Shown one piece after another: positions 5,743 through 63,565 of a DNA stretch of 64,000 nucleotides; position 1 is the stretch's first letter, and each line of letters opens with the position of its first letter. The notes under the pieces are model-generated. The model saw nothing but the letters and a program-made list of their open reading frames with translations, was not told the origin of the DNA and did not search any database. The translations under genes and the position numbers were made by a program. This DNA comes from an uncultured Streptomycetaceae bacterium (GTDB taxonomy: Bacteria > Pseudomonadota > Gammaproteobacteria > Burkholderiales > SG8-41), in assembly GCA_964521405.1 (NCBI GenBank), contig CAZFRR010000176.1, positions 16,285 through 80,284 of the forward strand, written 5' to 3'.

Positions 5743-5856
5743 TACCGCAGAGACGCGGAGGCGCAAAGCGATCGCAAAGCAGGATCGTCCATGAGTGGGA
5801 TGCATATTCATCATTGAGTCTTGCGCTTTCTCTGCGTCTTTGCGCCTTTGCGGTTA
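5743..5856. repeat. inverted repeat with arms made of ~8-nt tandem units (NCGCNNAG), intercistronic in the por-like operon
   Basis: Left arm taccgcagagacgcggaggcgcaaagcgatcgcaaagc. Right arm cttgcgctttctctgcgtctttgcgcctttgcggtta. The right arm contains the stop codon of the upstream beta-subunit gene (5854-5856). Confidence 0.8.
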
Positions 5857-11512: not shown

Positions 11513-11519
11513 GCCCTCC

Positions 11520-15545: not shown

Positions 15546-15616
15546 TTCTCTCTGCGGCTCGGCGGTTCAATTGTCGTTCTTGAGTTTCTTGGCGGCCTTG
15601 GCGTCTTGGCGGTGAG
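15546..15616. repeat. right-type arms (…CTCGGCGGTTCAA; TTCTTGGCGGCCTTGGCGTCTTGGCGGTGAG)
   Basis: ttctctctgcggctcggcggttcaa (15546-15570) and ttcttggcggccttggcgtcttggcggtgag (15586-15616). The latter is the near reverse complement of 13659-13687. Confidence 0.7.
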
Positions 15617-15624
15617 AGGTTCAG

Positions 15625-22502: not shown

Positions 22503-22506
22503 GCGC

Positions 22507-23175: not shown

Positions 23176-23297
23176 GAACCGCCGAGGCGCCGAGAGAAGC
23201 AAATACAAGAATAAGATTCAGGCAAAAAGAGACTCTTCATCATCAGATGTTATTTTTTGCCATTGCTCATGTTTCTCTCGGCGTCTCGGCGGTTCAA
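23176..23297. repeat. inverted repeat with 8-nt-unit arms and GAACCGCC / GGCGGTTC termini
   Basis: gaaccgccgaggcgccgagagaagc (23176-23200) pairs with tttctctcggcgtctcggcggttcaa (23272-23297). The spacer is AT-rich. Confidence 0.85.
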
Positions 23298-23304
23298 TGG
23301 TTCT

Positions 23305-24223: not shown

Positions 24224-24305
24224 AAAACACGAAGGACACAAAGGACACGAAGGGTTTGTCGATTACTTTATGATTTCCTTTGTGCCCTTGGTGTCCTTTG
24301 TGGTT
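24224..24305. repeat. inverted repeat with 9-nt-unit arms (ACACNAAGG)
   Basis: aaaacacgaaggacacaaaggacacgaaggg pairs with cctttgtgcccttggtgtcctttgtggtt. The right arm runs into the coaBC stop codon. Confidence 0.85.
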
Positions 24306-25513: not shown

Positions 25514-25560
25514 GTAGCGCTTCATCTTCAAGTGGGGGTAAGAGTGTAACCGCAAACGGC

Positions 25561-25595
25561 GTGAATCGTAAATCGTTAATCGTTAATCGTGAATC
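25561..25595. repeat. tandem heptamers GTNAATC x5
   Basis: gtgaatc gtaaatc gttaatc gttaatc gtgaatc. Confidence 0.8.
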
Positions 25596-27614: not shown

Positions 27615-27619
27615 TTCAA

Positions 27620-27656
27620 CTCGAAACTCGAAACTTGGAACCTGGAACCTGGAACC
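27620..27656. repeat. tandem heptamers (CTCGAAA x2, CTTGGAA, CCTGGAA x2)
   Basis: Single array between the rpmG terminator and the convergent desaturase stop. Confidence 0.75.
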
Positions 27657-31704: not shown

Positions 31705-31705
31705 T

Positions 31706-31803
31706 GTTCCGAGTTCCGAGTTCAATGTTCCGAGTTCAAAGCTCAAAGCTCAACCGGGAACTCCGACTTCGGAACCCGGAACCCGGAACCCGGAACCCGG
31801 AAC
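31706..31803. repeat. inverted heptamer arrays (GTTCCGA/GTTCAAW-type / CCGGAAC x4)
   Basis: Left arm 31706-31754, right arm 31770-31803. The element exactly fills the gap between the upstream stop (31804) and the rsmB start (31704). Confidence 0.9.
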
Positions 31804-32817
31804 TCATTCTTCGCTGATGCGGATCTCGCTCACCACCTGCTCGCCGGAGAACCTGCCTTCGCGGTCGAAGTGGCGGATGAGGACGGGCAGGTAGCGGTAC
31901 TCCGTGGCGAGCCAGATCTGGATGCTTTCCATTCCTTGTTTCGGCAGTTGCTTCACTGGCAGCGCGCGCAACGTCCCGATCGGGGTCTCGATGCTCTCCT
32001 CGGGCGTGACCTCGATTTCATAGATATCGAAGCGTGAACCGGTCGTCACCGGCACCCGGAAGCGGCCGGGCAGGGGCGGCATCACAGTGTGATGGTAGAT
32101 CAGGCTCATCAGGTCCTGGGTGCCCTCCGGCAGGGGCGCTTGCCGCGGTTCCCGCGCCAGGCCGTAGGCGAGGCTGCCCGCGCTCCAGTCAAAGCGCGCC
32201 TGTGCGGCCTCGGTCTGGCCGCGCCGGGTGCGGCTCATCAGGAAGGAATCGGGCCGCAATCCTTCGCGCGTGATCCGGCCCTGGCTCAGGTAACGCAGGC
32301 GCTGCGGCCGGAACAACTCGACGACGCCGCTGGTCTCGGCATCGCTCGTAATCCGGTAGACGCTGTTTTCGACCTCCCACGACTGCACGACCCTGCCCAC
32401 GGGGGAACGGTCCTCGCCGTAGACCAGCGTGTAGGTGATGCGCCCCCTGCGCGGCAGGCTGTGCGCAATCGGGGCGGTGGACTCCACGGCGAGCGCGATC
32501 TTCTGCGGGGGCTCCGGCGCGACGGGTTCATCCGCCGCGATTTCCGCTGGTGCGACATCGGGGAGGGCTTCCGGCAAGACGAGGGGGCTGGCTGCCGCGA
32601 GCACCGGGATCGGCGGCGCGGGTGCGGCACGCTGCGGATTCTGCACTCTTGGCCGGGGCGCCGTTGGCCTGATTTCCGGAGCAGGCGAGAGCCGCGCGAT
32701 GAGCGGCCGCGCCGCGCGCTCCGGTTGCGGGATCAGCAGCCATTCTCCGGAAATGACCAGCCCGTGCAGCGCTACGGACACGAGAGCAGCGAGTAACAGG
32801 CGGGCGCGTGTCGTCAC
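31804..32817 (-). CDS. membrane-anchored Pro-rich / DUF3108-like protein
   Basis: N-terminal TM helix, a TonB-like proline-rich linker, and a C-terminal region paralogous to the next gene (…IWLATEYRYLPVLIRHFDREG compared with …IWLAPEHRFLPVKLLVLEEDG). Confidence 0.55.
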   Translation of the reverse strand: MTTRARLLLAALVSVALHGLVISGEWLLIPQPERAARPLIARLSPAPEIRPTAPRPRVQNPQRAAPAPPIPVLAAASPLVLPEALPDVAPAEIAADEPVAPEPPQKIALAVESTAPIAHSLPRRGRITYTLVYGEDRSPVGRVVQSWEVENSVYRITSDAETSGVVELFRPQRLRYLSQGRITREGLRPDSFLMSRTRRGQTEAAQARFDWSAGSLAYGLAREPRQAPLPEGTQDLMSLIYHHTVMPPLPGRFRVPVTTGSRFDIYEIEVTPEESIETPIGTLRALPVKQLPKQGMESIQIWLATEYRYLPVLIRHFDREGRFSGEQVVSEIRISEE

Positions 32818-34179: not shown

Positions 34180-34192
34180 GCTCGACGTATCA

Positions 34193-34279
34193 ATGTTGAA
34201 TTTTGAGTGTTGAGTGTTGAATTGGAAAAGACCGGGGCCAGAGGTGCCTTTGCAATTCAACATTCAACATTCAACATTC
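34193..34279. repeat. inverted heptamer arrays (GTGTTGA-type / ATTCAAC x3)
   Basis: atgttgaattttgagtgttgagtgttgaatt pairs with aattcaacattcaacattcaacattc, in the purM-purN intercistronic gap. Confidence 0.85.
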
Positions 34280-36835: not shown

Positions 36836-36838
36836 CAT

Positions 36839-36950
36839 GTTCCGAGTTCAATGTTCCGAGTTCAATGTTCCGAGTTCAATGTCCAAATTTCCCGCGTAAA
36901 CCTCAAACCTTAACCCTAAACCCGGAACCCGGAACTCGGAACCTTAAACC
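36839..36950. repeat. inverted heptamer arrays (GTTCCGA GTTCAAT x3 / AACCYNA-ACCCGGA-type x7)
   Basis: The left arm is a 14-nt unit repeated 3 times (36839-36885). The right arm is 36899-36950 and ends at the pcnB start. Confidence 0.85.
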
Positions 36951-38318: not shown

Positions 38319-38385
38319 AGGCTGAAGGCAGAAGGCAAAAGGAAGGTTGTGGCACCAGTCACGAGTCACGAGTCGCGAGTCACGG
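38314..38385. repeat. two unrelated heptamer arrays side by side (GCWGAAG x4-5, then GTCACGA x4)
   Basis: gctgaag gctgaag gcagaag gcaaaag gaaggtt (38314-38348, containing the pcnB TGA). gtcacga gtcacga gtcgcga gtcacgg (38358-38385, inside the first folK codons). The two arrays are not complementary to each other. Confidence 0.8.
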
Positions 38386-38882
38386 CCTTCATTGCCCTGG
38401 GATCGAATCTTGGCGGTTCGGCAGTGCAGATACGCTCGGCGCTGCGCGCGCTGGAAAAGCTGCCGGACACACGCCTCGTGCGCGAGTCTTCTTTCTACCG
38501 CAACCCGCCGGAGGGCGGGCTCGACCAGCCGGCGTTCGTGAACGCGGTGGCGGAAATCGAGACACGCCTTGCCCCGCGCGCGCTGCTCGACCGGCTGCTC
38601 GAGATCGAGCGCGCCCACGGCCGGGTGCGGGACTATCCCAACGCGCCGCGCACGCTCGATCTGGATATCGCCCTCTACGGGGATAGCGTGATCCAGGAGC
38701 CCGGGCTCACGGTCCCTCATCCGCGGATGAGGGAGCGTGCTTTCGTGCTGGTGCCGCTCGCAGAAATCGCGCCCGATGCCGTGGTGCCGGGCAAGGGGCG
38801 CGTCGCCGATCTTGCCGGCAGGCTCGACGCCTCCGGCCTGGTTAAGCTTGAAAATCAGGAAACCGCAGATAAACGCAGATAG
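38349..38882 (+). CDS. folK: 2-amino-4-hydroxy-6-hydroxymethyldihydropteridine diphosphokinase
   Basis: FIALGSNLG, RTLDLDIALYGD and LTVPHPRMRERAFVLVPLAEI. GTG start. Both ends of the ORF are repeat-encoded. Confidence 0.85.
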   Translation: MAPVTSHESRVTAFIALGSNLGGSAVQIRSALRALEKLPDTRLVRESSFYRNPPEGGLDQPAFVNAVAEIETRLAPRALLDRLLEIERAHGRVRDYPNAPRTLDLDIALYGDSVIQEPGLTVPHPRMRERAFVLVPLAEIAPDAVVPGKGRVADLAGRLDASGLVKLENQETADKRR

Positions 38883-39003
38883 ACGCTGATCAAAAAACCA
38901 GAATGGCCTTTTATTTTCTATTTTTCTCTGTGAACACGATATTCTCTGTGTCAATGGTTTTCGGGTTGGAACCTATCCGCGTTTATCTGCGTTTATCTGC
39001 GGC
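38858..39003. repeat. inverted repeat with 10-nt-unit arms (CGCAGATARA) and AACCGC / GCGG termini
   Basis: ggaaaccgcagataaacgcagatagacgctgatc pairs with atccgcgtttatctgcgtttatctgcgg. The left arm supplies the last 7 codons and the TAG of folK. The spacer carries a TTCTCTGTG x2 motif like the arms at 39819-39847. Confidence 0.85.
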
Positions 39004-39021
39004 TAATTCATAAATCTTGGC

Positions 39022-39674: not shown

Positions 39675-39847
39675 CAGCCACAGAGAACACAGAGGTCACA
39701 GAGAAGGAGTTCATGAACCGTCAGGGCGCGGGCGTGACAGCATCATGGTATATCCTTATGGATTGAGGCGCGGGCATTTGCTCGTCCTGGGCTGTTTCGT
39801 TTTTTTCTGTAAATGTTTTTCTCCGTGATCTCTGTGTTCTCTGTGGC
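39675..39847. repeat. inverted repeat with 9-nt-unit arms (CACAGAGRN)
   Basis: cagccacagagaacacagaggtcacagagaagg pairs with ttctccgtgatctctgtgttctctgtggc, with a spacer of about 110 nt. Confidence 0.85.
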
Positions 39848-40653: not shown

Positions 40654-40668
40654 TAAGCTGTGCTCCGG
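40636..40668. repeat. perfect 14-bp hairpin with the panB stop codon in its loop
   Basis: CCGGAGCACAGCTT-ctagt-AAGCTGTGCTCCGG. The 5' arm is the last panB codons (PEHSF). The 3' arm is their inverted copy. Confidence 0.9.
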
Positions 40669-40809
40669 GTTCCAAGTTCCGGGTTCCAGGTTCCGAGTTT
40701 AAAGTTCAACAGCGGCACCCTCAAATTAGAGTCCGTTCCAATCTTGCTTGAACCTTGAACCTTGAACCTTGAACCTTGAACCTTGAACCTTGAACCTTGA
40801 ACCTTGAAC
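40669..40809. repeat. inverted heptamer arrays (GTTCCNN x6 / CTTGAAC x9 perfect)
   Basis: Left arm 40669-40710. Right arm 40747-40809, nine exact CTTGAAC units. Located between panB and panC. Confidence 0.9.
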
Positions 40810-41676: not shown

Positions 41677-41876
41677 GTTCCGAGTTCCGAGTTCCGAGTT
41701 CCGAGTTCCGAGTTCCGAGTTCCGAGTTCCGAGTTCCGAGTTCCGAGTTCCGAGTTCCGGGTTCCAGGTTCAAAGTTCCAAGTGCGGAACTTCGAATTCC
41801 ACGTACGTCCAACCTTGAACCTTGAACCTTGAACCTTGAACCTTGAACTTGGAACCCGGAACCCGGAACCCGGAAC
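41677..41876. repeat. largest inverted heptamer array pair (GTTCCGA x11 perfect plus 4 variants / CTTGAAC-CCGGAAC-type x~9)
   Basis: Eleven exact GTTCCGA units at 41677-41753, then gttccgg, gttccag, gttcaaa, gttccaa. Centre 41782-41808. Right arm 41809-41876. The element abuts tRNA-Leu. Confidence 0.95.
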
Positions 41877-41884: not shown

Positions 41885-41971
41885 TGGTGCCGGGAGCGAG
41901 AGTCGAACTCGCACGCCTTTGGGGGCGCGGGATTTTGAGTCCCGTGCGTCTACCAATTCCGCCATCCCGGC
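41885..41971 (-). tRNA. tRNA-Leu (anticodon CAA)
   Basis: Reverse complement: GCCGGGATGGCGGAATTGGTAGACGCACGGGACTCAAAATCCCGCGCCCCCAAAGGCGTGCGAGTTCGACTCTCGCTCCCGGCACCA. 7-bp acceptor stem, anticodon loop CT-CAA-AA, long variable arm, T-loop GTTCGACTC, encoded CCA. Confidence 0.9.
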
Positions 41972-42087: not shown

Positions 42088-43119
42088 ATGCGTCTCGATG
42101 ACTTTGATTACGAGCTGCCGGAGGAACTGATCGCCCAGTTTCCCGCCGGCGTGCGCGGCGCGGATCGCCTGCTGCACCTCGATGGCGGGACTGGGGCGAT
42201 CGCCGACCTCCGGTTCGGCGATCTCGCCGGGCTCGTTGCGCCGGGCGATGTCGTCGTATTGAACGACACGCGCGTGATCAAGGCGCGGCTCCTGGGCAGG
42301 AAGCAAAGCGGCGGCCGGGTCGAAGTGATGGTCGAACGCGTGCTCGGGGCCAATGAAGTGCTGGCGCAAATCGGCGCCAACCATCCCACGCGCACCGGCA
42401 CCACGCTCTATCTGGCCGATGCGCTCGAAGCGACGGTGCTCGCGCGCGAGCGCGAGTTTTTCCGGCTGCGCTTCGAGGGGTGCGAGGATGTACACGCGCT
42501 GCTCGAGCGCCACGGCAGCGTGCCGCTGCCCCTGTACATCGCGCGCGGCGCCGCGGACAGCGACAGGGAGCGCTACCAGACGGTCTACGCGCGTGAGCGC
42601 GGCGCGGTCGCCGCGCCGACCGCGGGCCTGCATTTCGACCAGGCGATGCTGGACGCGCTGCAGGGCAAGGGCGTGGCGCTTGCCTACGTTACGCTGCATG
42701 TCGGCGCCGGCACGTTCCAGCCGGTGCGCGTGCAGGACCTCGCTCAGCACGAAATGCACGGCGAGTGGTATCACGTGCCGCAGGCTACGGTGGATGCGAT
42801 CAACCAGACGCGGGAGAGAGGCGGGCGCGTGCTGGCGGTGGGGACGACAACGCTGCGCGCGCTGGAAAGCGCGGCGGCCGGCGGGGCGCTGGAGGCCGGG
42901 CGTGACGAAACGCGGCTCTTCGTCCTCCCCGGCTATCGCTTCCGCGTGGTCGAGCGCCTCATCACCAACTTCCACCTGCCCCGGTCGACGCTGCTGATGC
43001 TGGTGTCGGCCTTTGGCGGCAGGGATAATGTCCGCCGCGCCTACCGGCACGCGATCGGCGAGCGCTATCGCTTCTACAGTTACGGCGACGCGATGCTGAT
43101 TGAACGTGCAGAAAATTAA
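42088..43119 (+). CDS. queA: S-adenosylmethionine:tRNA ribosyltransferase-isomerase
   Basis: MRLDDFDYELPEELIAQFP, AAPTAGLHF and VGTTTLRALES. Confidence 0.95.
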   Translation: MRLDDFDYELPEELIAQFPAGVRGADRLLHLDGGTGAIADLRFGDLAGLVAPGDVVVLNDTRVIKARLLGRKQSGGRVEVMVERVLGANEVLAQIGANHPTRTGTTLYLADALEATVLAREREFFRLRFEGCEDVHALLERHGSVPLPLYIARGAADSDRERYQTVYARERGAVAAPTAGLHFDQAMLDALQGKGVALAYVTLHVGAGTFQPVRVQDLAQHEMHGEWYHVPQATVDAINQTRERGGRVLAVGTTTLRALESAAAGGALEAGRDETRLFVLPGYRFRVVERLITNFHLPRSTLLMLVSAFGGRDNVRRAYRHAIGERYRFYSYGDAMLIERAEN

Positions 43120-43266
43120 CCGCCAAGACGCCGAGAAAGACAAACACAGCATTTCAACCGCCGAGGCGCCGAGAGAAACGGAGACAAGGTATTTCTTTTT
43201 GTTTTGGTTTTCTCTATCTCGGCGTCTCGGCGGTTAATTATTGCATTTGCCTTTCTTGGCGGTTGA
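43116..43266. repeat. nested pair of inverted repeats (outer TTAACCGCCAAGACGCC.../...CTTGGCGGTTGA; inner TCAACCGCCGAGGCGCCGAGAG.../...CTCGGCGTCTCGGCGGTTAA)
   Basis: Outer arms 43116-43141 and 43250-43266. Inner arms 43154-43189 and 43208-43237. The queA TAA lies in the outer left arm. Confidence 0.85.
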
Positions 43267-43271: not shown

Positions 43272-44402
<1,131 letters not shown>

Positions 44403-44414
44403 AAACGAAACTGC

Positions 44415-44532
44415 AATAGACAGGATTAACAGGATTAACAAGATTAGCAAGATTCAATCAAAGCCCTCCAAAGGCATTTCTGTTTTCGATCTAATCTTGT
44501 CAATCCTGTGAATCTTGTAAATCCTGTCTATT
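44415..44532. repeat. AT-richer inverted repeat with 9-nt-unit arms (CARGATTAR)
   Basis: aatagacaggattaacaggattaacaagattagcaagattcaatc pairs with gatctaatcttgtcaatcctgtgaatcttgtaaatcctgtctatt. Confidence 0.85.
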
Positions 44533-44954: not shown

Positions 44955-45048
44955 CTCGTCAATCGTAAATCGTAAATCGTGAATCGGTAGAGTTGATGGC
45001 AGGCAGCGCAGGTTTTTCGATTAACGATTCACCATTTACGATTCACGA
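44954..45048. repeat. inverted heptamer arrays (AATCGTR x4 / CGATTMA-type x4)
   Basis: aatcgta aatcgta aatcgtg aatcggt pairs with cgattaa cgattca ccattta cgattca, in the yajC-secD gap. Confidence 0.85.
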
Positions 45049-45054: not shown

Positions 45055-46920
45055 ATGAACCGCTACTCCCTCTGGCAATACATTCTCATCGCTACCGCGG
45101 TGGTGTTCGGCTTCATCTACACCCTGCCCAACCTCTTCGGCGAGGTCCCGGCGGTGCAGGTTTCGCCGCTGCGGCCGGCGTTGAAGGCCGACACCGCCCT
45201 CATGGGCCGCATCGAGGAGACGCTCAAAAAGGGCGGTATCGCCGCCAACGGCGTGTTCATCGACTCGACCAGCGTCAAGGTCCGCCTGGCCGACACCGAT
45301 ACCCAGTTGAAGACCAAGGATCTGCTGCAGGCGCAACTGGGAGATGACTACGTCGTCGCGCTGAACCTGCTGTCCAATAGCCCGCGCTGGCTGGCTTCGA
45401 TCGGCGCGCTGCCGATGTACCTGGGTCTCGATCTCCGCGGCGGCGTGCATTTCCTGTTGCAGGTGGACATGAAGGCGGCCATTACCAAGAAAATGGAGGC
45501 CTACGGCAACGATATCCGCAACGGGCTGCGCGACAAGCGCATCCAGTACACCGGCGTCTCGCGCGATGGCCAGTCGGTCACGGTGCGGTTTCGCGACAAG
45601 GCGATGCGCGACAAGGGGCTGGCGGAAATCCAGCGCACCATCACCGATCTCGAGTTGAGGGAAGTGGATGACTCAGGCGGCGAATTCCGCATCGTCGGCT
45701 CGCTGAAACCCGAGGCGCAGAAAAAAACCCAGGACTTCGCGATCCAGCAGAACATCACCACGCTGCGCAACCGCGTCAACGAGCTGGGCGTGGCGGAGCC
45801 CATCATCCAGCAGCAGGGAAGCGACCGCGTGGTGGTGCAGCTCCCGGGCGTGCAGGACACCGCCAAGGCGAAGGACATCCTCGGCCGCACGGCGACGCTG
45901 GAAGTGCGGCTGGTGGATGACGACGCCACCAACAACCCGGCGGCGATCCAGGCCGCGATGTCGGGCCAGCTGCCGTTCGGGGACGAGCTCTACCTCGAGC
46001 GCGACGGCCGCCCGATCCTGGTGAAGCGGCAGATCGTGCTGACCGGCGACCGCATCAACGACGCCCAGCCGGGCTTCGACAACCAGACGGGCGAGCCGGC
46101 GGTGCACATCAGTCTCGACGGCACCGGCGCGCGCATCTTCCACCAGGTCACCCGCGAGAATGTCAACAAGCGCATGGCGATCCTGCTCTTCGAGAAGGGC
46201 AAGGGCGAAGTGGTGACCGCCCCGGTGATCCGCTCCGAGATACCGGGCGGCCGGGTGCAGATCAGCGGGCGGATGACGACGCAGGAGGCGCGCGACGTCT
46301 CCCTGCTGCTGCGCGCCGGCGCGCTCGCCGCGCCGATGGAAATCATCGAGGAGCGCACGGTGGGGCCGTCGCTCGGGGCGGAGAACATCCGCATCGGCTT
46401 CCAGTCCATGTGGATGGGATTTCTGGCCATAGCCCTGTTCATGATCGCTTACTACGCGCTGTTCGGCGCGATTTCAATCATCGCGCTGTCGGCGAACCTG
46501 CTGTTCCTGATCGCGCTCCTGTCCATGCTGCAGGCGACGCTGACGCTGCCGGGGATCGCGGCGATCGCGCTGGCGCTCGGCATGGCGATCGACGCCAACG
46601 TGCTGATCAACGAGCGCGTGCGCGAGGAGCTGCGCAACGGCAATTCGCCGCAGGCGGCGATTCACGCCGGCTACGAGCGGGCATGGGCGACGATTCTCGA
46701 CTCCAACGTGACCACGCTAATCGCGGGCATTGCGCTATTGGCGTTCGGCTCGGGACCCGTGAGGGGCTTTGCCGTGGTGCACTGCCTCGGCATACTGACT
46801 TCGATGTTCAGCGCGGTGATGGTCTCGCGCGGAATCGTCAACCTCTATTACGGCAGCCGCCGCCGGCTCGACAAGGTTTCCATCGGCCAGGTGTGGCGGC
46901 CAAATGCAGGAAAGACGTGA
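45055..46920 (+). CDS. secD: protein translocase subunit SecD
   Basis: MNRYSLWQYILI..., LGLDLRGGVHFLLQVD and C-terminal TM bundle motifs. Confidence 0.95.
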   Translation: MNRYSLWQYILIATAVVFGFIYTLPNLFGEVPAVQVSPLRPALKADTALMGRIEETLKKGGIAANGVFIDSTSVKVRLADTDTQLKTKDLLQAQLGDDYVVALNLLSNSPRWLASIGALPMYLGLDLRGGVHFLLQVDMKAAITKKMEAYGNDIRNGLRDKRIQYTGVSRDGQSVTVRFRDKAMRDKGLAEIQRTITDLELREVDDSGGEFRIVGSLKPEAQKKTQDFAIQQNITTLRNRVNELGVAEPIIQQQGSDRVVVQLPGVQDTAKAKDILGRTATLEVRLVDDDATNNPAAIQAAMSGQLPFGDELYLERDGRPILVKRQIVLTGDRINDAQPGFDNQTGEPAVHISLDGTGARIFHQVTRENVNKRMAILLFEKGKGEVVTAPVIRSEIPGGRVQISGRMTTQEARDVSLLLRAGALAAPMEIIEERTVGPSLGAENIRIGFQSMWMGFLAIALFMIAYYALFGAISIIALSANLLFLIALLSMLQATLTLPGIAAIALALGMAIDANVLINERVREELRNGNSPQAAIHAGYERAWATILDSNVTTLIAGIALLAFGSGPVRGFAVVHCLGILTSMFSAVMVSRGIVNLYYGSRRRLDKVSIGQVWRPNAGKT

Positions 46921-47074
46921 TTGAACCGCCAAGACGCCAAGACGCCATGACAACAATGCGAAAACATTCGATTCGATTTCATCCGGAATGCCTTGGCGCA
47001 AGGCGGCGCGGGACGACGCGCATCGCTTTCAATTCATTCCGGATTGCCTTGGCGTCTTGGCGTCTTGGCGGTTA
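46921..47074. repeat. inverted repeat with 8-nt-unit arms (CGCCAAGA x2-3) and TTGAACCGCC / GGCGGTTA termini
   Basis: ttgaaccgccaagacgccaagacgccat (starting the base after the secD TGA) pairs with gccttggcgtcttggcgtcttggcggtta. The spacer holds a partial extra right arm (tccggaatgccttggcg compared with tccggattgccttggcg). Confidence 0.9.
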
Positions 47075-47088: not shown

Positions 47089-48036
47089 ATGGAATTTTTC
47101 AGAATCAAGCGCGACATCCCGTTCATGCGCTACGCGCTGATCTTCAACGTGATCTCGCTCATCACGTTCCTGGTCGCGGTAGGCGCGCTCGCGACGCGCG
47201 GCCTGCACCTCGGCGTGGATTTCACCGGCGGCACGGTGATGGAGCTTTCCTACCAGCAGCCGCCGGACCTCAACCAGATCCGCGAGCGCATGGTGAAGGT
47301 CGGGTTCGCGGACCCGAGCGTGCAGAACTTCGGCACCTCGCGCGACGTGCTGGTCCGGCTGCCGGTCAAGGAGGGCCTGACCAGCGCCAAGCTGTCGGAA
47401 CTGGTCATGCAGGAATTGAAGCAGCTGGACGCCACCGCGGAGCTGCGGCGGGTCGAGTTCGTCGGCCCGCAGGTCGGCAAGGAACTGCTCGAGAACGGCG
47501 CGCTCGCGCTGCTGTTCGTCTCCATCGGCATCGTGCTCTACCTGTGGCTGCGCTTCGAGTGGAAATTCGGGGTCTCGGCAATCATCGCCAACCTGCACGA
47601 CATCGTGATCATTCTCGGCGTGTTCTCGATCTTCCAGTGGGAGTTCTCGCTGCCGGTGCTCGCGGCGGTGCTCGCGATCCTCGGCTACTCGGTGAACGAG
47701 TCGGTGGTTGTGATGGACCGGGTGCGCGAGAATTTCCGCAGCCGCCGCTTCCGCACCGCTTCCGTGCCGCAGGTGATCGACAACGCGATCACCGCGACCC
47801 TGTCGCGCACCATCATCACCCATTTCTGCACCCAGCTGATGGTGTGCTCGATGCTGATTTTCGGCGGCGAGACGCTGCATTATTTCGCGCTGGCGCTGAC
47901 CATCGGCATCTGCTTCGGCATCTATTCCTCGGTGCTGGTGGGCAGCCCGCTCCTGATGTGGCTCGGCCTGCGGCGCGAGGACCTGGCGCGGCCCGACGTC
48001 GAGAAGAAGGCCGGCGAGTCCGGCGCGGTGGTCTAA
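47089..48036 (+). CDS. secF: protein translocase subunit SecF
   Basis: GVDFTGGTVMEL, DIVIILGVFS and SVVVMDRVRENF. Confidence 0.95.
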   Translation: MEFFRIKRDIPFMRYALIFNVISLITFLVAVGALATRGLHLGVDFTGGTVMELSYQQPPDLNQIRERMVKVGFADPSVQNFGTSRDVLVRLPVKEGLTSAKLSELVMQELKQLDATAELRRVEFVGPQVGKELLENGALALLFVSIGIVLYLWLRFEWKFGVSAIIANLHDIVIILGVFSIFQWEFSLPVLAAVLAILGYSVNESVVVMDRVRENFRSRRFRTASVPQVIDNAITATLSRTIITHFCTQLMVCSMLIFGGETLHYFALALTIGICFGIYSSVLVGSPLLMWLGLRREDLARPDVEKKAGESGAVV

Positions 48037-48076
48037 TCTGCGGTTCCATTCAGGCTGTTCTTAGGGAAGCGCGCTC

Positions 48077-48721
48077 GTGGAGTTTTTCGCCGCTTTCGCT
48101 GACCTCGTTCTCCACCTCGACCGCCACCTGCAGTGGCTGGTCGAAAACTACGGCGCATGGATCTACGCGATCCTGTTCCTGATCATCTTCTGCGAAACCG
48201 GGCTGGTGGTGACGCCGTTCCTGCCGGGGGACTCGCTGCTGTTCGTGGCCGGCACGCTCGCCGCGGCCGGCGACATGTACGTGCACGGACTCTTCGCCGC
48301 GCTCGCCTGCGCTTCCTTCCTGGGCGACAACACCAACTACTGGATCGGGCGCTACGCCGGGCCGCGGGTATTCTCGCGCGAGGGCTCGCGGTTGCTGAAC
48401 CCGGCCCACCTCGAGCGCACGCAGCGCTTTTACGATAAATACGGCGCGAACACGATATTCTTCGCGCGCTTCATGCCGATCGTCCGCACCTTTGCGCCCT
48501 TCGTCGCGGGCATCGGGCGCATGCGGTATTCCCGCTTCCTGTTCTACAGCTTCTCGGGCAGCATCGCCTGGGTCGGCTCGCTGACTTATGCCGGCTACTA
48601 CTTCGGCACCGTGCCGGTGGTCAAGCAGAACCTCACGCTGGTGATCGTGGTTATCGTCCTGATCTCGATCCTGCCCGGTATCATCGAATACTTCCGCCAC
48701 CGCAACAGCCGGAAGGCGTGA
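48077..48721 (+). CDS. DedA-family (VTT domain) membrane protein
   Basis: LFLIIFCETGLVVTPFLPGDSLLF and GRF(M)PIVRTFAPFVAG motifs. GTG start. Confidence 0.8.
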   Translation: MEFFAAFADLVLHLDRHLQWLVENYGAWIYAILFLIIFCETGLVVTPFLPGDSLLFVAGTLAAAGDMYVHGLFAALACASFLGDNTNYWIGRYAGPRVFSREGSRLLNPAHLERTQRFYDKYGANTIFFARFMPIVRTFAPFVAGIGRMRYSRFLFYSFSGSIAWVGSLTYAGYYFGTVPVVKQNLTLVIVVIVLISILPGIIEYFRHRNSRKA

Positions 48722-48838
48722 CTCGTCTCTCGTTTTTCGTTACTCGTCCGATGCGATGAAGCCCGGCCCGTTGTTCCTGCCGAGGAACCATTCAAGAGTC
48801 ACCGGCAGCCAGTCACGAGCAACGAGCAACGAGTCACC
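48719..48838. repeat. inverted heptamer arrays (NNCTCGT-type x4 / ACGAGNN-type x4)
   Basis: tgactcgtctctcgtttttcgttactcgtcc pairs with agtcacgagcaacgagcaacgagtcacc. The left arm begins on the dedA TGA. Confidence 0.85.
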
Positions 48839-48849
48839 TCTTATCCAGG

Positions 48850-49911
48850 CTATTCCGGCTTGAGGCCTGCGTCGCTGATCACCTTGCGCCAGCGTGCGGT
48901 TTCCTCCCGGATGAGCCGGGCGAAAGCCTCGGGAGTGAGCGCGCCGGGTTCGAAGGCCTGCTCGGCCAGCGCCTCGCGCAGTTCGGCAGAACCCAGAACG
49001 GAATTCAGCTCGCGGTTGAGCCGCGCGATCACCGTGCCGGGCGTGCGCGCCGGAACGAACACGCCTACCCATAGCGAGGTCTGATAGCCCGGAAACCCCG
49101 ATTCCGCGATGGTCGGCGTCTGGGGGAGCGCGGATAACCGTTGCGGGCTGGTGACGCCGATCGCGCGCAGCTTGCCGGCTCTTACGTGCGGCAACGAGGC
49201 CGCGATGGTGCTGATATTCAACTGGATGCGGCCCGCCAGCAGGTCGATCAACGCGAGGTTGGATCCCTTGTAGGGCACGTGCACCATGTCGATCCCGGCC
49301 GCCTTCTTGAGGAGTTCGCCCGAGAGATGCCCGACGCTGAAGTTGCCGACGGAGGCATAGAGCAGTTTGCCGGGATTGGCGCGGGCGTAGGCGACGAACT
49401 CCCTGACGTTGGATGCCGGCAGCGCGGGATTCACGGTCAGGAAATAGGGCGAGTCACCCAGCAGCGCGACCGGCGAGAAATCCCTGACCGGGTCGTAGCC
49501 CAGCTTGGGGTTCAGGATGTGGGCAAGGGCGTGGGTCGTCGTCGTGCCGAGCCCCCACGTATAGCCGTCGGGCGCGGCGCGTGCCACCGTTTCCACGCCG
49601 ATCGTGCCGCTCGCGCCGGACCGGTTGTCGACCACGATGGGCTGGCCGAGGCGCTCGCCCGCCCGCAGCGCGACGAGCCGCGCCACGACGTCGGTGGTCG
49701 TTCCCGGCGGAAAAGGGACGACGAAGCGGACCGGCCGTGATGGAAACGCCGGCTCTGCGGCATGCACCGCGCCCAACATCCACAACTGAACCGCCAAGAC
49801 GCCAAGCCCGCCAAGGAAAGCAGAATAGAACCGGATTGAAAAGACTCCACACGTTCTCAAGCCTTCTGCATTGTCGCTACTGGCTGAAATAGTGTAATTC
49901 ACGAAAATCAT
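48850..49911 (-). CDS. Bug/TctC-family tripartite tricarboxylate transporter substrate-binding protein (start uncertain)
   Basis: RPVRFVVPFPPGTTTDVVARL..VVDNRSGASGTIG are Bug-family blocks. The only plausible signal peptide (SIRFYSAFLGGLGVLAVQLWMLGAVHA) is encoded by the repeat arm at 49787-49821. Confidence 0.75.
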   Translation of the reverse strand: MIFVNYTISASSDNAEGLRTCGVFSIRFYSAFLGGLGVLAVQLWMLGAVHAAEPAFPSRPVRFVVPFPPGTTTDVVARLVALRAGERLGQPIVVDNRSGASGTIGVETVARAAPDGYTWGLGTTTTHALAHILNPKLGYDPVRDFSPVALLGDSPYFLTVNPALPASNVREFVAYARANPGKLLYASVGNFSVGHLSGELLKKAAGIDMVHVPYKGSNLALIDLLAGRIQLNISTIAASLPHVRAGKLRAIGVTSPQRLSALPQTPTIAESGFPGYQTSLWVGVFVPARTPGTVIARLNRELNSVLGSAELREALAEQAFEPGALTPEAFARLIREETARWRKVISDAGLKPE

Positions 49912-49949
49912 TTTGAATTCTTGGTGGTCTTGGCGGCCTTGGCGGTTGA
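49787..49949. repeat. inverted repeat with 8-nt-unit arms (TGAACCGCCAAGACGCCAAGCCCGCCAAGG / TTCTTGGTGGTCTTGGCGGCCTTGGCGGTTGA)
   Basis: Left arm 49787-49821, right arm 49918-49949. The spacer is AT-rich and contains the ATG at 49911. Confidence 0.85.
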
Positions 49950-49950: not shown

Positions 49951-51090
49951 TTAGCGGCGCAGCGCGCGGTCGAGACCGAGCAGCAGCTCCTCGAAATCGT
50001 CGAGCGAATTGTAGCGCGGCGCCGCGGCGAGATGCGGCGTGACGATCGCGTTGCGGAAACCGAGCAGCGGGTCATCGGCGCGTCCCGGCGCGTCGTAATG
50101 GGGATCGAGGCCGAAGCCGCCGAGCCGGCCAGAGCGCAGCGCCTCGAGCAAGGCCTCGCGCTCCACCAGCGGCGGGCGCGAGATGTTGATGAGGATCGCG
50201 CCCGGCCTGATGAGCCCGAGTTCGCGCCGGCCGATGATGCCGCGCGTGGCGTCGCTGAACGGCAGGTGCAGGCTCACGAAGTCGCTCGTTGCCAGCAGCT
50301 CGTCAAGCGGAGCGTAGGCCGCGCCGAAACGCGTCTCCTCCAGCTTCGCGAGCTGGCGGCGCTGGGTGTAGACGATGCGCATGCCGAACGCTGCGGCGCG
50401 AAGCGCCACCTCGCGCCCGATCTCGCCGAAGCCGACGATGCCGATTTGTCTGCCGAACAGGTTGCGCGTGCCGGTGATGCGCGCCCAGTTCGCGTTGGCC
50501 GTGTGCTCGCGGTCGTACTTTGTGGGGGAAAAACCTGCCGCCTGCAGCTGCTCGACGCTGATGAGGCCCGCCGTCTCGTGGATCTTGCGCGCCAGGGCCA
50601 GCATCAGCCCGAACGCGTGCTCCGCGCAGGAAATGTTGGCGCGGCGCCGCAGGGTGAGAACCCGGATGCCGGCCCGGCGGCAGGCGGCGGCATCGATGCC
50701 CGACAGCACGGTACCGTATTTCTGAACGATGCGCAGCGTCTTGCCCGCGGCGGCGATCTCCTGTCTTCCGATGGTGAGCGATTCCGTGACCACGGCGGTG
50801 GCGCCGGGCAGAGCAGTGAGCAGCCCGGCCTGGTCCGTGACCAGACGCACCTCGGCGGGGTAGAGGCGCTTCAACCGCGCCCGCAGGCGAGCGCACCAGC
50901 CGGCGAAATCCGGCTCCTCGTGCGCGAAGAAGTGGGAAAACGCCGCCAGCCGCGCAGCGGGTGTCGCGGGGTCCAGGATCACCTGGATCAGGCGGGGGAA
51001 GGGGTCGTCTTCGACGACGACCACTGGTCGTCGCCCGTTGTTCGTTTCTCGTTTCTCGTTTCTCGCAAGCGGTTTCTTGCTTCTGTTCAT
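49951..51090 (-). CDS. D-isomer-specific 2-hydroxyacid dehydrogenase family protein
   Basis: NAD fold IGIVGFGEIGREVA, plus RGIIG..ILINISRPPLVEREALLEAL and DPH (catalytic His region). The N-terminal 15 codons are repeat-encoded. Confidence 0.8.
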   Translation of the reverse strand: MNRSKKPLARNEKRETNNGRRPVVVVEDDPFPRLIQVILDPATPAARLAAFSHFFAHEEPDFAGWCARLRARLKRLYPAEVRLVTDQAGLLTALPGATAVVTESLTIGRQEIAAAGKTLRIVQKYGTVLSGIDAAACRRAGIRVLTLRRRANISCAEHAFGLMLALARKIHETAGLISVEQLQAAGFSPTKYDREHTANANWARITGTRNLFGRQIGIVGFGEIGREVALRAAAFGMRIVYTQRRQLAKLEETRFGAAYAPLDELLATSDFVSLHLPFSDATRGIIGRRELGLIRPGAILINISRPPLVEREALLEALRSGRLGGFGLDPHYDAPGRADDPLLGFRNAIVTPHLAAAPRYNSLDDFEELLLGLDRALRR

Positions 51091-51156
51091 CGCGCTTGCC
51101 TTTAAGCGTTCCTGGTCACGAGCAACGAGTAACGAGAAACGAGCAACGAGTCACGC
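51036..51156. repeat. inverted heptamer arrays (CGTTKYT x4 / ACGAGNA x5) enclosing a start codon
   Basis: Left arm 51036-51066 lies inside the 5' end of the dehydrogenase ORF. Right arm 51116-51154 overlaps the stop of the AhpD-like gene. The ATG at 51090 sits in the spacer. Confidence 0.85.
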
Positions 51157-51681: not shown

Positions 51682-51695
51682 ATGCTTGATGAGGC

Positions 51696-51785
51696 GTGAC
51701 TCGTGACTCGTTACTCGTTCTTCGTTATTCGTGTCTGGCGACTCGTGGGTGGATACCAGGAACGAGAAACGAGCAACGAGTCACG
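51696..51785. repeat. inverted heptamer arrays (GTKACTC-type x7 / ACGAGNA x4)
   Basis: gtgactc gtgactc gttactc gttcttc gttattc gtgtctg gcgactc pairs with ggaacgagaaacgagcaacgagtcacg. Confidence 0.85.
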
Positions 51786-54346: not shown

Positions 54347-54484
54347 TTAACCGCGGAGGCGCAGAGACGCAGAGGTAACGCATCGAAAATCGATGAAACG
54401 ACGACTCAACGGATTGGGGAATCACAGAAGTTTTGAAAGTTGTAGAAATTTATGTTCTCCGCGTCTCAGCGCCTCCGCGGTTCA
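54347..54484. repeat. inverted repeat with 8-nt-unit arms (CGCRGAGR) and TTAACCGCGG / CCGCGGTTCA termini
   Basis: ttaaccgcggaggcgcagagacgcagaggtaacgc pairs with ttctccgcgtctcagcgcctccgcggttca. Confidence 0.85.
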
Positions 54485-62903: not shown

Positions 62904-62984
62904 GGGCGGAGGGATGAGGGATGCGCGATGCGGGTTTCTCTCATCTCGTATCCCGGATCTCGTATCCCGTATCACGATTCACGC
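62902..62984. repeat. inverted heptamer arrays (GAGGGAT-type x5 / GTATCCC-type x6)
   Basis: gagggcg gagggat gagggat gcgcgat gcgggtt pairs with tcatctc gtatccc ggatctc gtatccc gtatcac gattcac. The element starts on the upstream TGA. Confidence 0.8.
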
Positions 62985-63534: not shown

Positions 63535-63560
63535 GGGGCGAGGGATGAGGGATTAGTGAC
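63533..63560. repeat. tandem heptamers (GAGGGGC, GAGGGAT x2, TAGTGAC)
   Basis: Starts inside the TGA stop of the preceding gene. Confidence 0.7.
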
Positions 63561-63565
63561 GAAGG

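What the first reader, a model, noticed from the sequence alone, without database searches (positions are those of the whole stretch)
46921..47074. Second repeat class: 8-10-nt-unit arms with conserved T(T/G)AACCGC...GCGGTT(C/A)A termini and locus-specific, compensating interiors
The elements at 5743, 23176, 24224, 38858, 39675, 43116, 44415, 46921, 49787 and 54347 share three features:

- an outer terminus resembling TTGAACCGCC;
- 2-4 tandem units of 8-10 nt, such as CGCCAAGA, CGCCGAGG, CGCRGAGR, CGCAGATRRA, CACAGAGRN or ACACNAAGG;
- an AT-rich, non-conserved spacer of 20-120 nt, followed by the reverse-complement arm.

The variable dinucleotides inside the units change together in both arms of a locus. 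For example, CCAAGA pairs with TCTTGG at 46921 and CGGAGG pairs with CCTCCG at 54347. This is covariation of the kind that supports a folded DNA or RNA structure.

GGAACC/GGTTCC-like cores also occur in the heptamer class, so the two classes may be related.
Basis: seen in the sequence. Interest (0 to 1): 0.7.

Follow-up and report, generated by a model that had tools for sequence, protein, structure and literature searches.

The report
Tandem-unit palindromic intergenic repeat family
The 154-base feature between secD and secF is one copy of an abundant, fast-turning-over family of hairpin-forming intergenic repeats with short tandem-unit arms, found in an uncultured soil Burkholderiales lineage and its phages; it resembles REP/REPIN and MITE repeats but fits none of the described families.

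Summary
At 46924-47073, two 24-nt arms pair perfectly (AACCGCCAAGACGCCAAGACGCCA / its reverse complement) around a 102-nt spacer, and they fill the gap from the secD stop codon to the secF ribosome-binding site. All ten listed loci hold such elements. Seven or eight carry the (G)AACCGC...GCGGTT(C) tip.

The arm class is far above chance: 11 left and 13 right arms in the window against 0-1 in shuffles. Compensation between the arms of a locus is significant: own arm 20.9/24 matched against 16.7/24 for other loci, permutation p<1e-5.

The elements are not an artefact. The same arm families occur in independent MAGs, in metagenome contigs and in genuine phage contigs, one of them only 41% GC.

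Orthologous spacers show gain, loss, nesting, replacement by other unit families and hybrid arms. Spacers are shared only between orthologues. No target-site duplications were found. G.T and A.C mismatches show no transcription-strand bias. Few elements have a terminator-type T-run.

Best reading: a REPIN/MITE-like, probably non-autonomous palindromic repeat family. Complementarity is kept at the DNA level, and the elements are tolerated because they fold compactly in the stop-to-RBS gap. The mobilising machinery is unknown. I rate it a new variant of a known kind, of moderate interest.

The parts
46921..47074 (.). Focal element: tip + 3x8-nt left arm (46924-46953), 90-102-nt spacer, right arm (47044-47073). 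It fills the secD stop to secF RBS gap.
   Evidence: 24/24 perfect core pairing; fold z -7.6 as RNA, -8.2 as DNA; flanking genes are SecD and SecF
46981..47044 (.). Inner palindrome within the focal spacer (ATCCGGAATG...CATTCCGGAT), plus a 27-nt direct duplication of the spacer/right-arm boundary (46972-46998 and 47028-47054)
   Evidence: I4, D1; inner stem in the MFE structure
5744..5854 (.). CGCRGAGR-class element between two minus-strand genes. The right tip GCGGTTA overlaps the stop codon of the TPP-enzyme gene.
23176..23295 (.). CGCCGAGR-class element, 22/23 paired. The right tip GGTTCA supplies the stop codon of the minus-strand ORF 23294-23629.
24225..24305 (.). 9-nt ACACRAAGG-class element between dUTPase and the DFP gene. 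The GTGGTTCAA tip is present on the right only.
38858..39004 (.). 10-nt CGCAGATRAA-class element. The left arm encodes the last ~7 residues and the stop codon of folK (HPPK). The spacer holds stray CACAGAG-type right-arm units.
39677..39847 (.). 9-nt CACAGAGRN-class element (27/29 paired) between the deoxynucleoside kinase gene and panB
43114..43264 (.). Compound nested element between queA and tgt: outer CGCCAAGA pair (43118-43128 / 43254-43264) and inner CGCCGAGR pair (43156-43174 / 43217-43235). The queA TAA stop codon lies in the tip.
44368..44403 (.). Unpaired CGCAGATGAA left arm forming the last 9 codons and the stop codon of tgt
   Evidence: (the TGT domain ends at residue 366 of 374)
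44415..44532 (.). 9-nt ACARGATTA-class element with its own tip, AATAGACAGG; 34/40 paired
49789..49947 (.). CGCCAAGR-class element (8/9-nt spacing) abutting the stop codon of the 2-hydroxyacid dehydrogenase gene
54349..54482 (.). CGCRGAGR-class element (24/26 paired) between convergent genes; absent from the orthologous site in L086
13620..13690 (.). Two stacked left arms (the outer tip TGAACC includes the stop codon of the deacetylase-family gene). Their partners lie 1.9 kb away.
15547..15623 (.). The two matching right arms, closing the bracket around a lower-GC methyltransferase + cupin segment
10448..10560 (.). Three consecutive solo right arms with no left partners, in a divergent spacer
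48037..48052 (.). Remnant right tip (TAATCTGCGGTTCC) of a CGCAGATRAA hairpin that is intact at this site in L082, L086 and L093

Best explanation
The feature is one copy of a lineage-specific family of REPIN/MITE-like palindromic intergenic repeats that are probably non-autonomous.

Anatomy. Each arm is a module: a conserved tip, (G)AACCGC, followed by about three tandem units. Each unit is a 7-nt core, C(G/A)C-N-R-A-(G/T), plus a 1-3-nt linker. The arm then decays inward into purine-rich sequence on the left and pyrimidine-rich sequence on the right. Two inverted modules flank an unconstrained spacer.

Shown:
- The modules are gained, lost, nested, stacked, recombined into hybrids and replaced at gene 3' ends.
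- This happens in an uncultured Burkholderiales lineage and in its phages.

Inferred:
- The modules spread by a DNA-level, sequence- or structure-specific mechanism that leaves no target-site duplication. The best analogy is single-strand HUH/RAYT-type transposition of REPINs.
- Arm complementarity comes from copying whole palindromes and from correction within an element (template switching or gene conversion across the hairpin), together with unit-level slippage. It does not come from RNA-specific selection.
- When transcribed, the element folds into a hairpin of 24 bp or more that compacts the stop-to-RBS gap. This is why insertions are tolerated inside operons such as secD-secF. Effects on mRNA 3'-end stability or RNase III processing would be side effects that may sometimes be co-opted.
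For: Real and widespread:
- Arm counts are far above shuffles.
- The same unit families, with the same tips, occur in independent MAGs and metagenome contigs.
- They also occur in 23 IMG/VR contigs, of which L163 and L182 were checked and both carry portal and major-head genes.
- L167, at 41% GC, carries an arm identical to the window's. That arm cannot have arisen from local sequence.

Gain, loss and replacement at orthologous sites:
- The secD-secF spacer is 10-35 nt with no element in L002, L081 and L083. It holds a GTGAATC heptamer hairpin in L082 and L086-L088, and a CGCCAAGA-class hairpin in L094.
- At the site of 49787, eight genomes show eight arrangements, including hybrids and stacked arms.
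- The site of 54347 is empty in L086.
- A deletion remnant survives at 48037-48052.
- Relatives L184 and L188 have 15-43-nt spacers where the window has elements.

Arms behave as modules:
- Spacers are shared only between orthologues, never between paralogues.
- Solo, stacked, nested and mismatched arms all occur.
- Elements 23176 and 43156 share the same left/right asymmetry, GAGG against GAGA. This points to common descent of a two-armed element.

Complementarity is kept at the DNA level:
- Own-arm matching is significant.
- G.T and A.C mismatches show no sense-strand bias.
- Mismatches concentrate toward the loop.

Position:
- The median distance from arm tip to stop codon is 6 nt, with about 17 nt left before the next start codon.
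- Elements are enriched between convergent genes (28% against a 15.5% baseline) and depleted between divergent genes (7% against 13%).
- Only 7% have a T-run on the sense strand.
- A canonical terminator is retained next to an added hairpin at 22478-22698.
Against: - No transposase, RAYT or recombinase that could move the elements was found in the 64-kb window. The only transposase trace is an ISL3 fragment.
- Whole genomes could not be searched.
- No pair of paralogous copies shares a spacer, which recent copy-and-paste of whole elements would predict.
- No insertion-site motif or target-site duplication was seen in 21 complete elements.
- Arrays at one site in different genomes often share a core that includes the upstream stop codon, for example GTGA at yajC-secD. 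This fits in-situ evolution as well as it fits insertion.
- Ten or more unit families in one genome would need several recognition systems, or one that reads structure.
- The mismatch test has limited power (65 informative mismatches in co-directional contexts). It excludes only a strong RNA wobble bias.
Confidence: 0.5

Rival explanations
1. Selected RNA elements. The hairpins are functional intercistronic or 3'-UTR structures. They could block 3' exonucleases, act as RNase III processing sites, or preserve translational coupling. Under this view the compensatory changes reflect purifying selection on the folded transcript.
For: - The elements sit between the stop codon and the RBS inside conserved operons and at gene 3' ends.
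- The stems are 24 bp or longer and very stable.
- Phages keep complete hairpins between structural genes, for example between the protease/scaffold and major-head genes in L163.
- The covariation statistics are strong.
- The stacked-arm spacer at site A is about 94% identical between L086 and L093 (my count on the sequences printed), while the two loci are 87% identical overall.
Against: - G.U-type mismatches show no excess over A.C-type on the sense strand.
- Close relatives do without the element at the same sites, and different families substitute for one another.
- Solo arms and hybrid arms that cannot pair persist.
- Identical arm sequences, not just structures, recur across distant replicons.
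Confidence: 0.2
2. In-situ origin without mobility. Short local sequences next to stop codons expand by replication slippage into tandem arrays. Quasi-palindrome template switching copies each expansion to the opposite arm. The shared units reflect slippage-prone or tolerated sequences, not transposition.
For: - Long simple-sequence repeats with 5-11-nt units, heptamers above all, are known to be enriched in Burkholderia and Xanthomonas and have been attributed to polymerase slippage (PMC4679880 and PMC4692102, read).
- Many arrays begin at, and incorporate, the upstream stop codon, and keep a site-specific core across genomes while period and sequence drift (yajC-secD GTGA units).
- No target-site duplications.
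- Spacers are unrelated.
- The mismatch spectrum is symmetric.
Against: - Arms of 24 nt or more, with the same tip, are identical or nearly so at unrelated sites, in genomes of 70-80% protein identity, and in phages including one of 41% GC.
- The 8-10-nt class almost always has about 3 units, not a free copy-number distribution.
- Whole elements are present or absent at orthologous sites with clean boundaries. One example is TGA|TTGAACCGCC...GGCGGTT|AGATAG against TAG|CG|AGATAG in L002.
Confidence: 0.15
3. Double-stranded DNA protein-binding arrays. The tandem 7-10-bp units would be cooperative binding sites for a small DNA-binding protein, as with ribbon-helix-helix proteins on heptad or 8-bp arrays, or for a nucleoid-associated factor. 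The arms match because both bind the same protein, with no hairpin involved.
For: - The units share a 7-nt core with a variable linker.
- Solo arms persist.
- The mismatch spectrum is symmetric.
- From my own knowledge, not tested here: MetJ binds tandem 8-bp boxes, and the omega repressor binds direct and inverted heptads WATCACW. The heptamer unit AATCACG resembles that heptad.
Against: - The elements sit at gene 3' ends and inside operons rather than at promoters, and are depleted in divergent spacers.
- Ten or more distinct unit families would need as many proteins.
- Variants at given positions within an arm are mirrored in the partner arm. Binding-site arrays do not require this.
- No candidate protein was identified.
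Confidence: 0.07
4. Recombination sites that bound gene cassettes, in the manner of attC or dif-module sites. Inverted arms would mark the boundaries of inserted cargo, and the short hairpins would be empty sites.
For: - Nested arm pairs bracket a 1.9-kb lower-GC methyltransferase + cupin segment.
- In L003 and L017, ORF-sized inserts of 1,451 and 921 nt lie between the arms of the queA-tgt element; their ORFs look toxin-antitoxin-like by eye, but no family search was run on them.
- The tips contain AAC...GTT, and stop codons often lie in the tip.
Against: - The tips do not fit RYYYAAC/GTTRRRY, apart from isolated cases read directly from the sequence.
- No integrase was found.
- The elements lie between core housekeeping genes in conserved order.
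- In L003 the cargo is flanked by arms of different families.
- The larger insertion 13623-17127 has no arm at its right end.
Confidence: 0.05

Closest known systems
REP / BIME / REPIN elements with their RAYT (Y1 HUH) transposases (PMC3116915, PMC3337134)
   Same: - Very abundant and strictly intergenic.
- Inverted pairs form long hairpins around a less conserved spacer.
- Several families per genome.
- No target-site duplication.
- Solo units and clusters occur.
- Located at gene 3' ends and inside operons.
- Mostly vertical persistence, with turnover.
   Different: - A single arm is not itself a palindrome (left arm -0.2 kcal/mol).
- There is no GTAG or CGTC head. The tip is (G)AACCGC.
- Arms are tandem arrays of 8-10-nt units.
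- Spacer length is free (23-139 nt).
- No RAYT was seen in the held sequence.
- Copies also occur in phage genomes.
Convergent (inverted) GGGAATC heptamer arrays of Xanthomonas, and long simple-sequence repeats with 5-11-nt units in Burkholderia and Xanthomonas (PMC4692102; Mrazek 2007 as cited in PMC4679880)
   Same: - Tandem short-unit arrays in intergenic DNA.
- Most are paired in convergent orientation, so that stem-loops can form.
- They lie within about 50 bp of stop codons.
- They are under-represented between divergent genes.
- Length and sequence vary between close species.
   Different: - One G-rich heptamer there. Here there are ten or more unit families, the 8-10-nt class has a conserved non-repeat tip, and copy number is nearly fixed at about 3.
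- No G-quadruplex potential.
- Nesting, stacking, hybrids, cargo between arms and phage copies are not described there.
MITEs (e.g. Correia/NEMIS, ERIC, Nezha)
   Same: - Size of 80-250 bp.
- Terminal inverted repeats.
- Presence/absence at orthologous sites.
- Nested insertions.
- Gene C-termini or stop codons are sometimes supplied by the element.
   Different: - No target-site duplication (0 of 21).
- No conserved internal sequence.
- No parent IS with the same ends.
- Arms are tandem repeats.
- No Rfam or literature match.
Integron attC sites
   Same: - Imperfect palindromes whose structure, rather than sequence, is conserved.
- AAC...GTT at the ends.
- Stop codons often lie inside the site.
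- Cargo genes can lie between the sites.
   Different: - The tips do not fit RYYYAAC/GTTRRRY.
- No integrase and no cassette array.
- They lie between core housekeeping genes.
- Arms are tandem repeats.
Cyanobacterial STRR heptamers and Beggiatoaceae TAACTGA repeats (PMC4679880)
   Same: Abundant intergenic tandem heptamer-scale repeats close to gene boundaries, shared across unrelated lineages.
   Different: Those are direct arrays, mostly upstream of start codons. Only one inverted case is reported. They have no conserved tips and no hairpin architecture.

Membership tests
REP / REPIN | Each REP unit is itself a 20-40-nt imperfect palindrome | tested here: not met
   Left arms fold at -0.2 to -4.4 kcal/mol with no hairpin. 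Pairing occurs only between the two arms.
REP / REPIN | Conserved GTAG or CGTC tetranucleotide at the head of the unit (PMC3733652) | tested here: not met
   The tips are TGAACCGC, TTAACCGC, GGAACCGC and TTAGCCGC.
REP / REPIN | Two inverted units forming a hairpin, at high copy number and extragenic | tested here: met
REP / REPIN | A cognate RAYT gene in the genome, usually flanked by the repeats | not testable with these tools
   None among the window's genes. The rest of the genome is not available.
MITE | Terminal inverted repeats, size 50-500 bp | tested here: met
MITE | Target-site duplication flanking the element | tested here: not met
   0 of 21 complete elements have a direct flank repeat of 2 nt or more.
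MITE | Copies share the internal sequence, and a parent IS has the same ends | tested here: not met
   Spacers match only between orthologues. No IS with these ends occurs in about 2 Mb of held sequence. The only transposase trace is an unrelated ISL3 fragment.
Inverted SSR arrays (Xanthomonas GGGAATC type) | Intergenic tandem arrays of a short unit, commonly in convergent pairs near stop codons and rare between divergent genes | tested here: met
   description in PMC4692102
Inverted SSR arrays (Xanthomonas GGGAATC type) | G-tract units able to form G-quadruplexes | tested here: not met
   1 of 21 elements has any G4 motif.
Integron attC | R''/R' core sites RYYYAAC...GTTRRRY, an integrase, and a cassette array | tested here: not met
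   The tips rarely fit. The flanking genes are a conserved queA-tgt-yajC-secD-secF operon. No integrase was found.
Intrinsic terminator | Short GC-rich stem with a 3-8-nt loop, followed by a U-tract | tested here: not met
   None of the arms is called by the terminator scan. Only 7% have 5 or more T in the 10 nt after the right arm on the sense strand. A separate canonical terminator is retained at 22478-22505.
Any Rfam family | Match at the gathering threshold | tested here: not met
   Only a tRNA at 41888-41971.

The most novel reading that the evidence does not exclude
The arms are the substrates or products of an undescribed sequence-specific machinery shared by an uncultured Burkholderiales lineage and its phages. 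Candidates are a new single-strand transposase or recombinase, or a templated repeat-adding activity. This machinery would install tip-plus-three-unit modules at gene boundaries. The resulting palindromes would then serve as platforms where accessory genes are inserted. That would make them a new class of modular genome punctuation rather than a REP or MITE variant.
Probability: 0.25. Interest if true: 0.8.

Novelty: new variant of a known kind. Interest (0 to 1): 0.55.

Why it matters
If the reading holds, a large share of the intergenic DNA of a widespread but uncultured group of soil and sediment Betaproteobacteria consists of modular palindromes with tandem-unit arms. These palindromes turn over faster than the flanking genes. 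They supply stop codons and C-terminal tails to housekeeping genes, and they also sit in the phages of these hosts.

This gives a tractable system for three open questions about REP-like DNA:
- What moves it.
- What keeps the two arms complementary. Here the evidence favours DNA-level correction over RNA selection.
- Whether hosts and phages co-opt it for operon expression.

There are practical consequences too. Such hairpins are likely break points in metagenome assembly and a source of gene-calling errors at 3' ends. The unit families could serve as lineage and phage-host markers.

Tried and rejected
- **Covariance model.** True elements score 17 bits or less because spacers of 80-140 nt cannot be bridged. 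I abandoned it for arm-level regular expressions and tip-anchored searches.
- **Exact-protein look-ups.** Look-ups of the window's SecF and YajC, meant to find sister strains, returned nothing. Strain-level polymorphism could therefore not be examined.
- **Rfam.** At gathering thresholds only a tRNA matched.
- **Plasmids.** Distant blastn found no match.
- **Literature.** A search for the literal repeat strings found only unrelated primer hits for the 11-mer. Keyword searches found analogues but no description of this family.
- **Terminator hypothesis.** Rejected.
- **G-quadruplex and REP-type self-palindromes.** Rejected.
- **Intrastrand triplex motif paper (PMC4666352).** I read the outline only and did not pursue it.
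- **Target-site duplication and insertion-site motif.** None found.
- **Integron attC.** Rejected on tip sequence and gene context.
- **Assembly artefact.** Rejected, because the same families occur in independent MAGs, JGI metagenomes and IMG/VR contigs.
- **Empty-hairpin test for the 13.6-15.6 kb island.** I tried to show that the island was inserted into a previously empty hairpin. The result was inconclusive, because relatives lack the whole 13623-17127 region.
- **L086 against L093 for short-term arm evolution.** The two are only 87% identical, so this was not informative.
Full report
**1. What is at the coordinates**

The stretch 46921-47074 lies between secD (45055-46920, +) and secF (47089-48036, +). 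Both genes were identified by Pfam.

- The left arm 46924-46947, AACCGCCAAGACGCCAAGACGCCA, pairs perfectly (24/24) with 47050-47073. Allowing mismatches, the pairing extends to 30 nt at 93%.
- Each arm is a tip, AACC, followed by three 8-nt units, GCCAAGAC.
- The 102-nt spacer contains a second, inner palindrome (46981-46995 / 47030-47044) and a 27-nt duplication of the boundary between spacer and right arm.
- The element begins 3 nt after the secD TGA and ends 15 nt before the secF ATG.
- Folded as RNA it reaches -85.7 kcal/mol (shuffles -54.2 +/- 4.2, z = -7.6). Folded as DNA it reaches -54.5 kcal/mol (z = -8.2).

**2. The set of elements**

They belong to a much larger population. Nearly every intergenic gap of the window that is not a divergent promoter region carries a hairpin whose arms are tandem arrays.

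- Heptamer families: GTTCCRR, CGTGAWT, AGTGTTG, TCGTTWC, AGGGATG.
- 8-10-nt families: CGCCAAGA / CGCCGAGR / CGCRGAGR, CACAGAGRN, ACACRAAGG, ACARGATTA, CGCAGATRAA.

Counts against chance:
- A strict detector finds 25 inverted-repeat clusters against 1-9 in dinucleotide shuffles.
- Arms of the CGC-N-R-A-K class number 11 left and 13 right against 0-1 in shuffles.

The (G)AACCGC...GCGGTT(C) tip holds for seven of the ten elements and partly for an eighth. Element 44415 has its own tip, AATAGACAGG, which is conserved in other genomes.

The units are best read as a 7-nt core plus a 1-3-nt linker, because 8- and 9-nt spacings mix within single arms.

- three solo right arms at 10448-10560
- a split, nested pair at 13620-13690 / 15547-15623
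- an unpaired left arm that forms the last nine codons and the stop codon of tgt (44368-44403)
- a remnant tip at 48037-48052

**3. Is the compensation real?**

Yes.

- For nine tip-aligned 8-nt elements, a left arm matches its own right arm at 20.9/24 positions against 16.7/24 for right arms of other loci. None of 100,000 permutations reached the observed value.
- The pair-count tool gives 92.6% paired cells against 79.7% in shuffles (0 of 500 shuffles reach it). Twelve of 24 pairs have changes on both sides, and 32 cells have double changes against 13.2 expected. Slid-partner controls fall to 39-51%.
- The variable columns are unit positions 4, 5 and 8.
- Mismatches increase toward the loop.

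**4. What the compensation does and does not show**

These are paralogous palindromes. Matched arms could come from birth as inverted copies, from arm-to-arm correction, or from selection on a fold.

The test that can single out RNA is wobble asymmetry. I applied it to 97 intergenic tandem-arm hairpins from the window and related loci.

- G.T and A.C mismatches are balanced between + genes (31 vs 34) and between - genes (13 vs 14).
- A transcript under selection for pairing should tolerate G.U but not A.C on the sense strand. A strong RNA-specific constraint is therefore not supported.
- The power is limited, so only a strong bias is excluded.

**5. Where the family occurs**

- The window comes from an uncultured Burkholderiales lineage. 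The best species representatives reach 94%, 86% and about 80% SecD identity. The nearest named hit for a flanking gene is a Sulfuritalea sp. MAG at 85%.
- Tandem-arm hairpins are dense in the nearest relatives, patchy further out, and not detected in the roughly 22-kb samples from cultured genera such as Ideonella, Xylophilus and Dechloromonas.
- The same unit families, with the same tips, recur at unrelated sites in genomes of only 65-80% protein identity:
  - ACAGGATTA in L003, L027, L094, L108 and L129
  - AACCGCCGATGAA in L058, L086, L093 and L094
  - CGCAAAGR in L026 and L027
- An exact-pattern scan of IMG/VR found 23 viral contigs.
  - They include complete hairpins (L163 twice, L165, L168, L173, L175) and nested ones (L174, L178, L179).
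  - L163 and L182 are true tailed-phage structural modules with portal, major head, protease and adaptor genes.
  - L167 has 41% GC yet carries an arm identical to the window's, directly after a stop codon.
- The family is therefore neither an artefact nor confined to one contig.

**6. Dynamics at orthologous sites**

secD-secF spacer:

| Loci | Spacer content |
|---|---|
| L002, L081, L083 (up to 93% SecF identity) | 10-35 nt, no element |
| L082, L086-L088 | GTGAATC heptamer hairpin |
| L094 | CGCCAAGA-class hairpin at the same place as the window |
| L093 | right arm only |
| other lineages | at least six other unit types |

- The boundaries are clean. The window reads TGA|TTGAACCGCC...GGCGGTT|AGATAG, against TAG|CG|AGATAG in L002.
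- At the site of 49787, eight genomes have eight arrangements. These include three stacked left arms (L086, L093) and hybrids whose left and right arms belong to different families (L081, L003).
- The site of 54347 is empty in L086.
- Downstream of secF the window keeps only TAATCTGCGGTTCC, where L082, L086 and L093 have a full hairpin.
- Relatives L184 and L188 have 15-43-nt spacers where the window has elements 23176 and 24224.
- Spacers are similar only between orthologous copies, never between paralogues.
- No complete element has a target-site duplication (0 of 21).

**7. Position and relation to expression signals**

- The median distance from an arm tip to the adjacent stop codon is 6 nt, and 56% lie between -35 and +10. 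About 17 nt remain before the next start codon.
- The tips often supply or overlap the stop codon: TAA at queA, TCA read on the opposite strand at 23294 and 24305, and TGA at 13620.
- Arms encode the C-terminal tails of tgt and folK.
- Elements are enriched between convergent genes (28% against 15.5%) and depleted between divergent genes (7% against 13%).
- They are not intrinsic terminators. Only 7% have a T-run on the sense strand, and none is called by the terminator scan.
- At 22478-22698 a canonical terminator shared with L184 and L188 is retained, and the hairpin is added after it.

**8. Cargo between arms**

- Two nested arm pairs bracket a 1.9-kb lower-GC segment that encodes a SAM-methyltransferase and a cupin protein.
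- In L003 and L017, ORF-sized inserts of 1,451 and 921 nt lie between the arms of the queA-tgt element. Their ORFs look toxin-antitoxin-like by eye, but no family search was run on them.
- Relatives lack the whole 13623-17127 region. I could therefore not show that the cargo entered a pre-existing hairpin.
- In L003 the two flanking arms belong to different families.

**9. Interpretation**

Shown:
- There is an abundant family of modular palindromic repeats.
- Each module is a conserved tip, about three tandem units and a decaying interior.
- Complementarity is locus-specific.
- Gain, loss and replacement at gene 3' ends are rapid.
- The family is present in phages.

Inferred:
- Spread is by a DNA-level mechanism that leaves no duplication. 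The closest analogy is HUH/RAYT-type single-strand transposition of REPINs.
- Arms are kept complementary by copying of palindromes and by template switching or gene conversion within an element.
- Insertions persist because a compact hairpin is harmless in the stop-to-RBS gap.

I put this reading at about 0.5. The rivals are:
- selected RNA hairpins, 0.2
- in-situ slippage plus quasi-palindrome correction, 0.15
- protein-binding arrays, 0.07
- cassette-boundary recombination sites, 0.05

**10. Comparison with known systems**

The family works most like REP/BIME/REPIN elements and like the convergent GGGAATC heptamer arrays of Xanthomonas (PMC4692102). It fails defining features of each candidate family:
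- REP: the arms are not self-palindromic and have no GTAG or CGTC head.
- MITE: there is no target-site duplication, no conserved interior and no parent IS.
- Xanthomonas arrays: there is no G-quadruplex potential, and the tip and near-fixed unit number differ.
- attC: the core sites, the integrase and the cassette context are all missing.
- No Rfam family and no paper in the searchable library describes it.

I therefore class it as a new variant of a known kind. The open point that could raise its importance is the unidentified machinery behind the arms.

Noticed in passing
window 22507-22698, 41677-41876, 40664-40809, 36837-36949, 31705-31805, 27618-27656: GTTCCRR / YYGGAAC heptamer hairpins with up to 15 units per arm. 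This is the most expanded member of the same architecture. The unit equals the (T/G)GAACC tip of the 8-10-nt class.
   Followed up: partly
window 657-728, 11470-11513, 25560-25595, 44956-45048; 23663-23761, 34192-34279; 48713-48842, 51036-51150, 51695-51785; 1689-1710, 10406-10427, 62895-62973, 63532-63568: Further heptamer families (CGTGAWT, AGTGTTG, TCGTTWC, AGGGATG), paired or solo. At yajC-secD, the CGTGAWT hairpin is replaced in other genomes by 8-nt GTGAAGGN or GTGAACGR hairpins that all keep the GTGA of the yajC stop-codon context.
   Followed up: partly
window 13623-17127: This 3.5-kb stretch is an insertion relative to L184, L188 and L189, where the AcuC-like deacetylase gene is directly followed by the luciferase-like monooxygenase gene. 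It holds an arm-bracketed methyltransferase (13803-14612, -) and cupin (14767-15057, -), plus a malonyl-CoA decarboxylase gene (15625-17097, -).
   Followed up: partly
window 43275-44399 (tgt) and 38349-38882 (folK/HPPK): The last 9 residues of Tgt (EPQMNADER) and the last ~7 of HPPK, with their stop codons, are encoded by CGCAGATRAA repeat arms. These tails are not conserved in relatives.
   Followed up: yes
window 27661-28824 (-): An ORF that combines a fatty-acid desaturase N-terminal part with a fragment of an ISL3-family DDE transposase. It lies in a lower-GC stretch (about 26.3-28.8 kb) and is probably an IS remnant or a fusion artefact of ORF calling.
   Followed up: no
window 41888-41971 (-): A tRNA gene (Rfam, 58.5 bits) between panC and queA, next to a large heptamer hairpin.
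   Followed up: no
window 20636-20650 (+): A sigma-54-type -24/-12 motif, TGGCACAACGGTTGC, in a 280-nt divergent spacer that is free of repeats and well conserved in L184. One match against 0.15 expected by chance.
   Followed up: no
window 22478-22505: A canonical intrinsic terminator, AAAACGCCCGGGGCTCCCGGGCGTTTTTTT, conserved in L184 and L188. In the window a 190-nt heptamer hairpin has been added directly after it.
   Followed up: yes
L094:4625-4715: A different palindromic insertion (TCCCGTTCCAATG...CATTGGAACGGGA) splits a CGCAGATAAA arm, with TAAA on both sides. It looks like a classical MITE with a target-site duplication, inserted into one of these elements.
   Followed up: no
L182:1042-1075 and 3077-3220 (phage contig): CGCCAAGR left arms lie in frame, without stop codons, inside the portal ORF and at the protease/scaffold junction. 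They encode NRQDAKDAK-type peptides. Three of the four arms in this phage are preceded by GGAGGA(A)TTG.
   Followed up: partly
L169:1668-1712 and 3915-3966 (viral contig, not verified as phage): Single right arms make up the entire stop-to-RBS spacer between two genes (TGA-CCTTGGCGCTCTTGGCGCCTTGGCGGTT-CAAAGGAGG-ATG). This shows that unpaired arms persist at gene junctions.
   Followed up: partly
L086:3225-3405 and L093:9050-9267: Three left arms of three different families are stacked head to tail, followed by one right arm. By my count on the printed sequences, this spacer is about 94% identical between two genomes that are 87% identical overall.
   Followed up: partly
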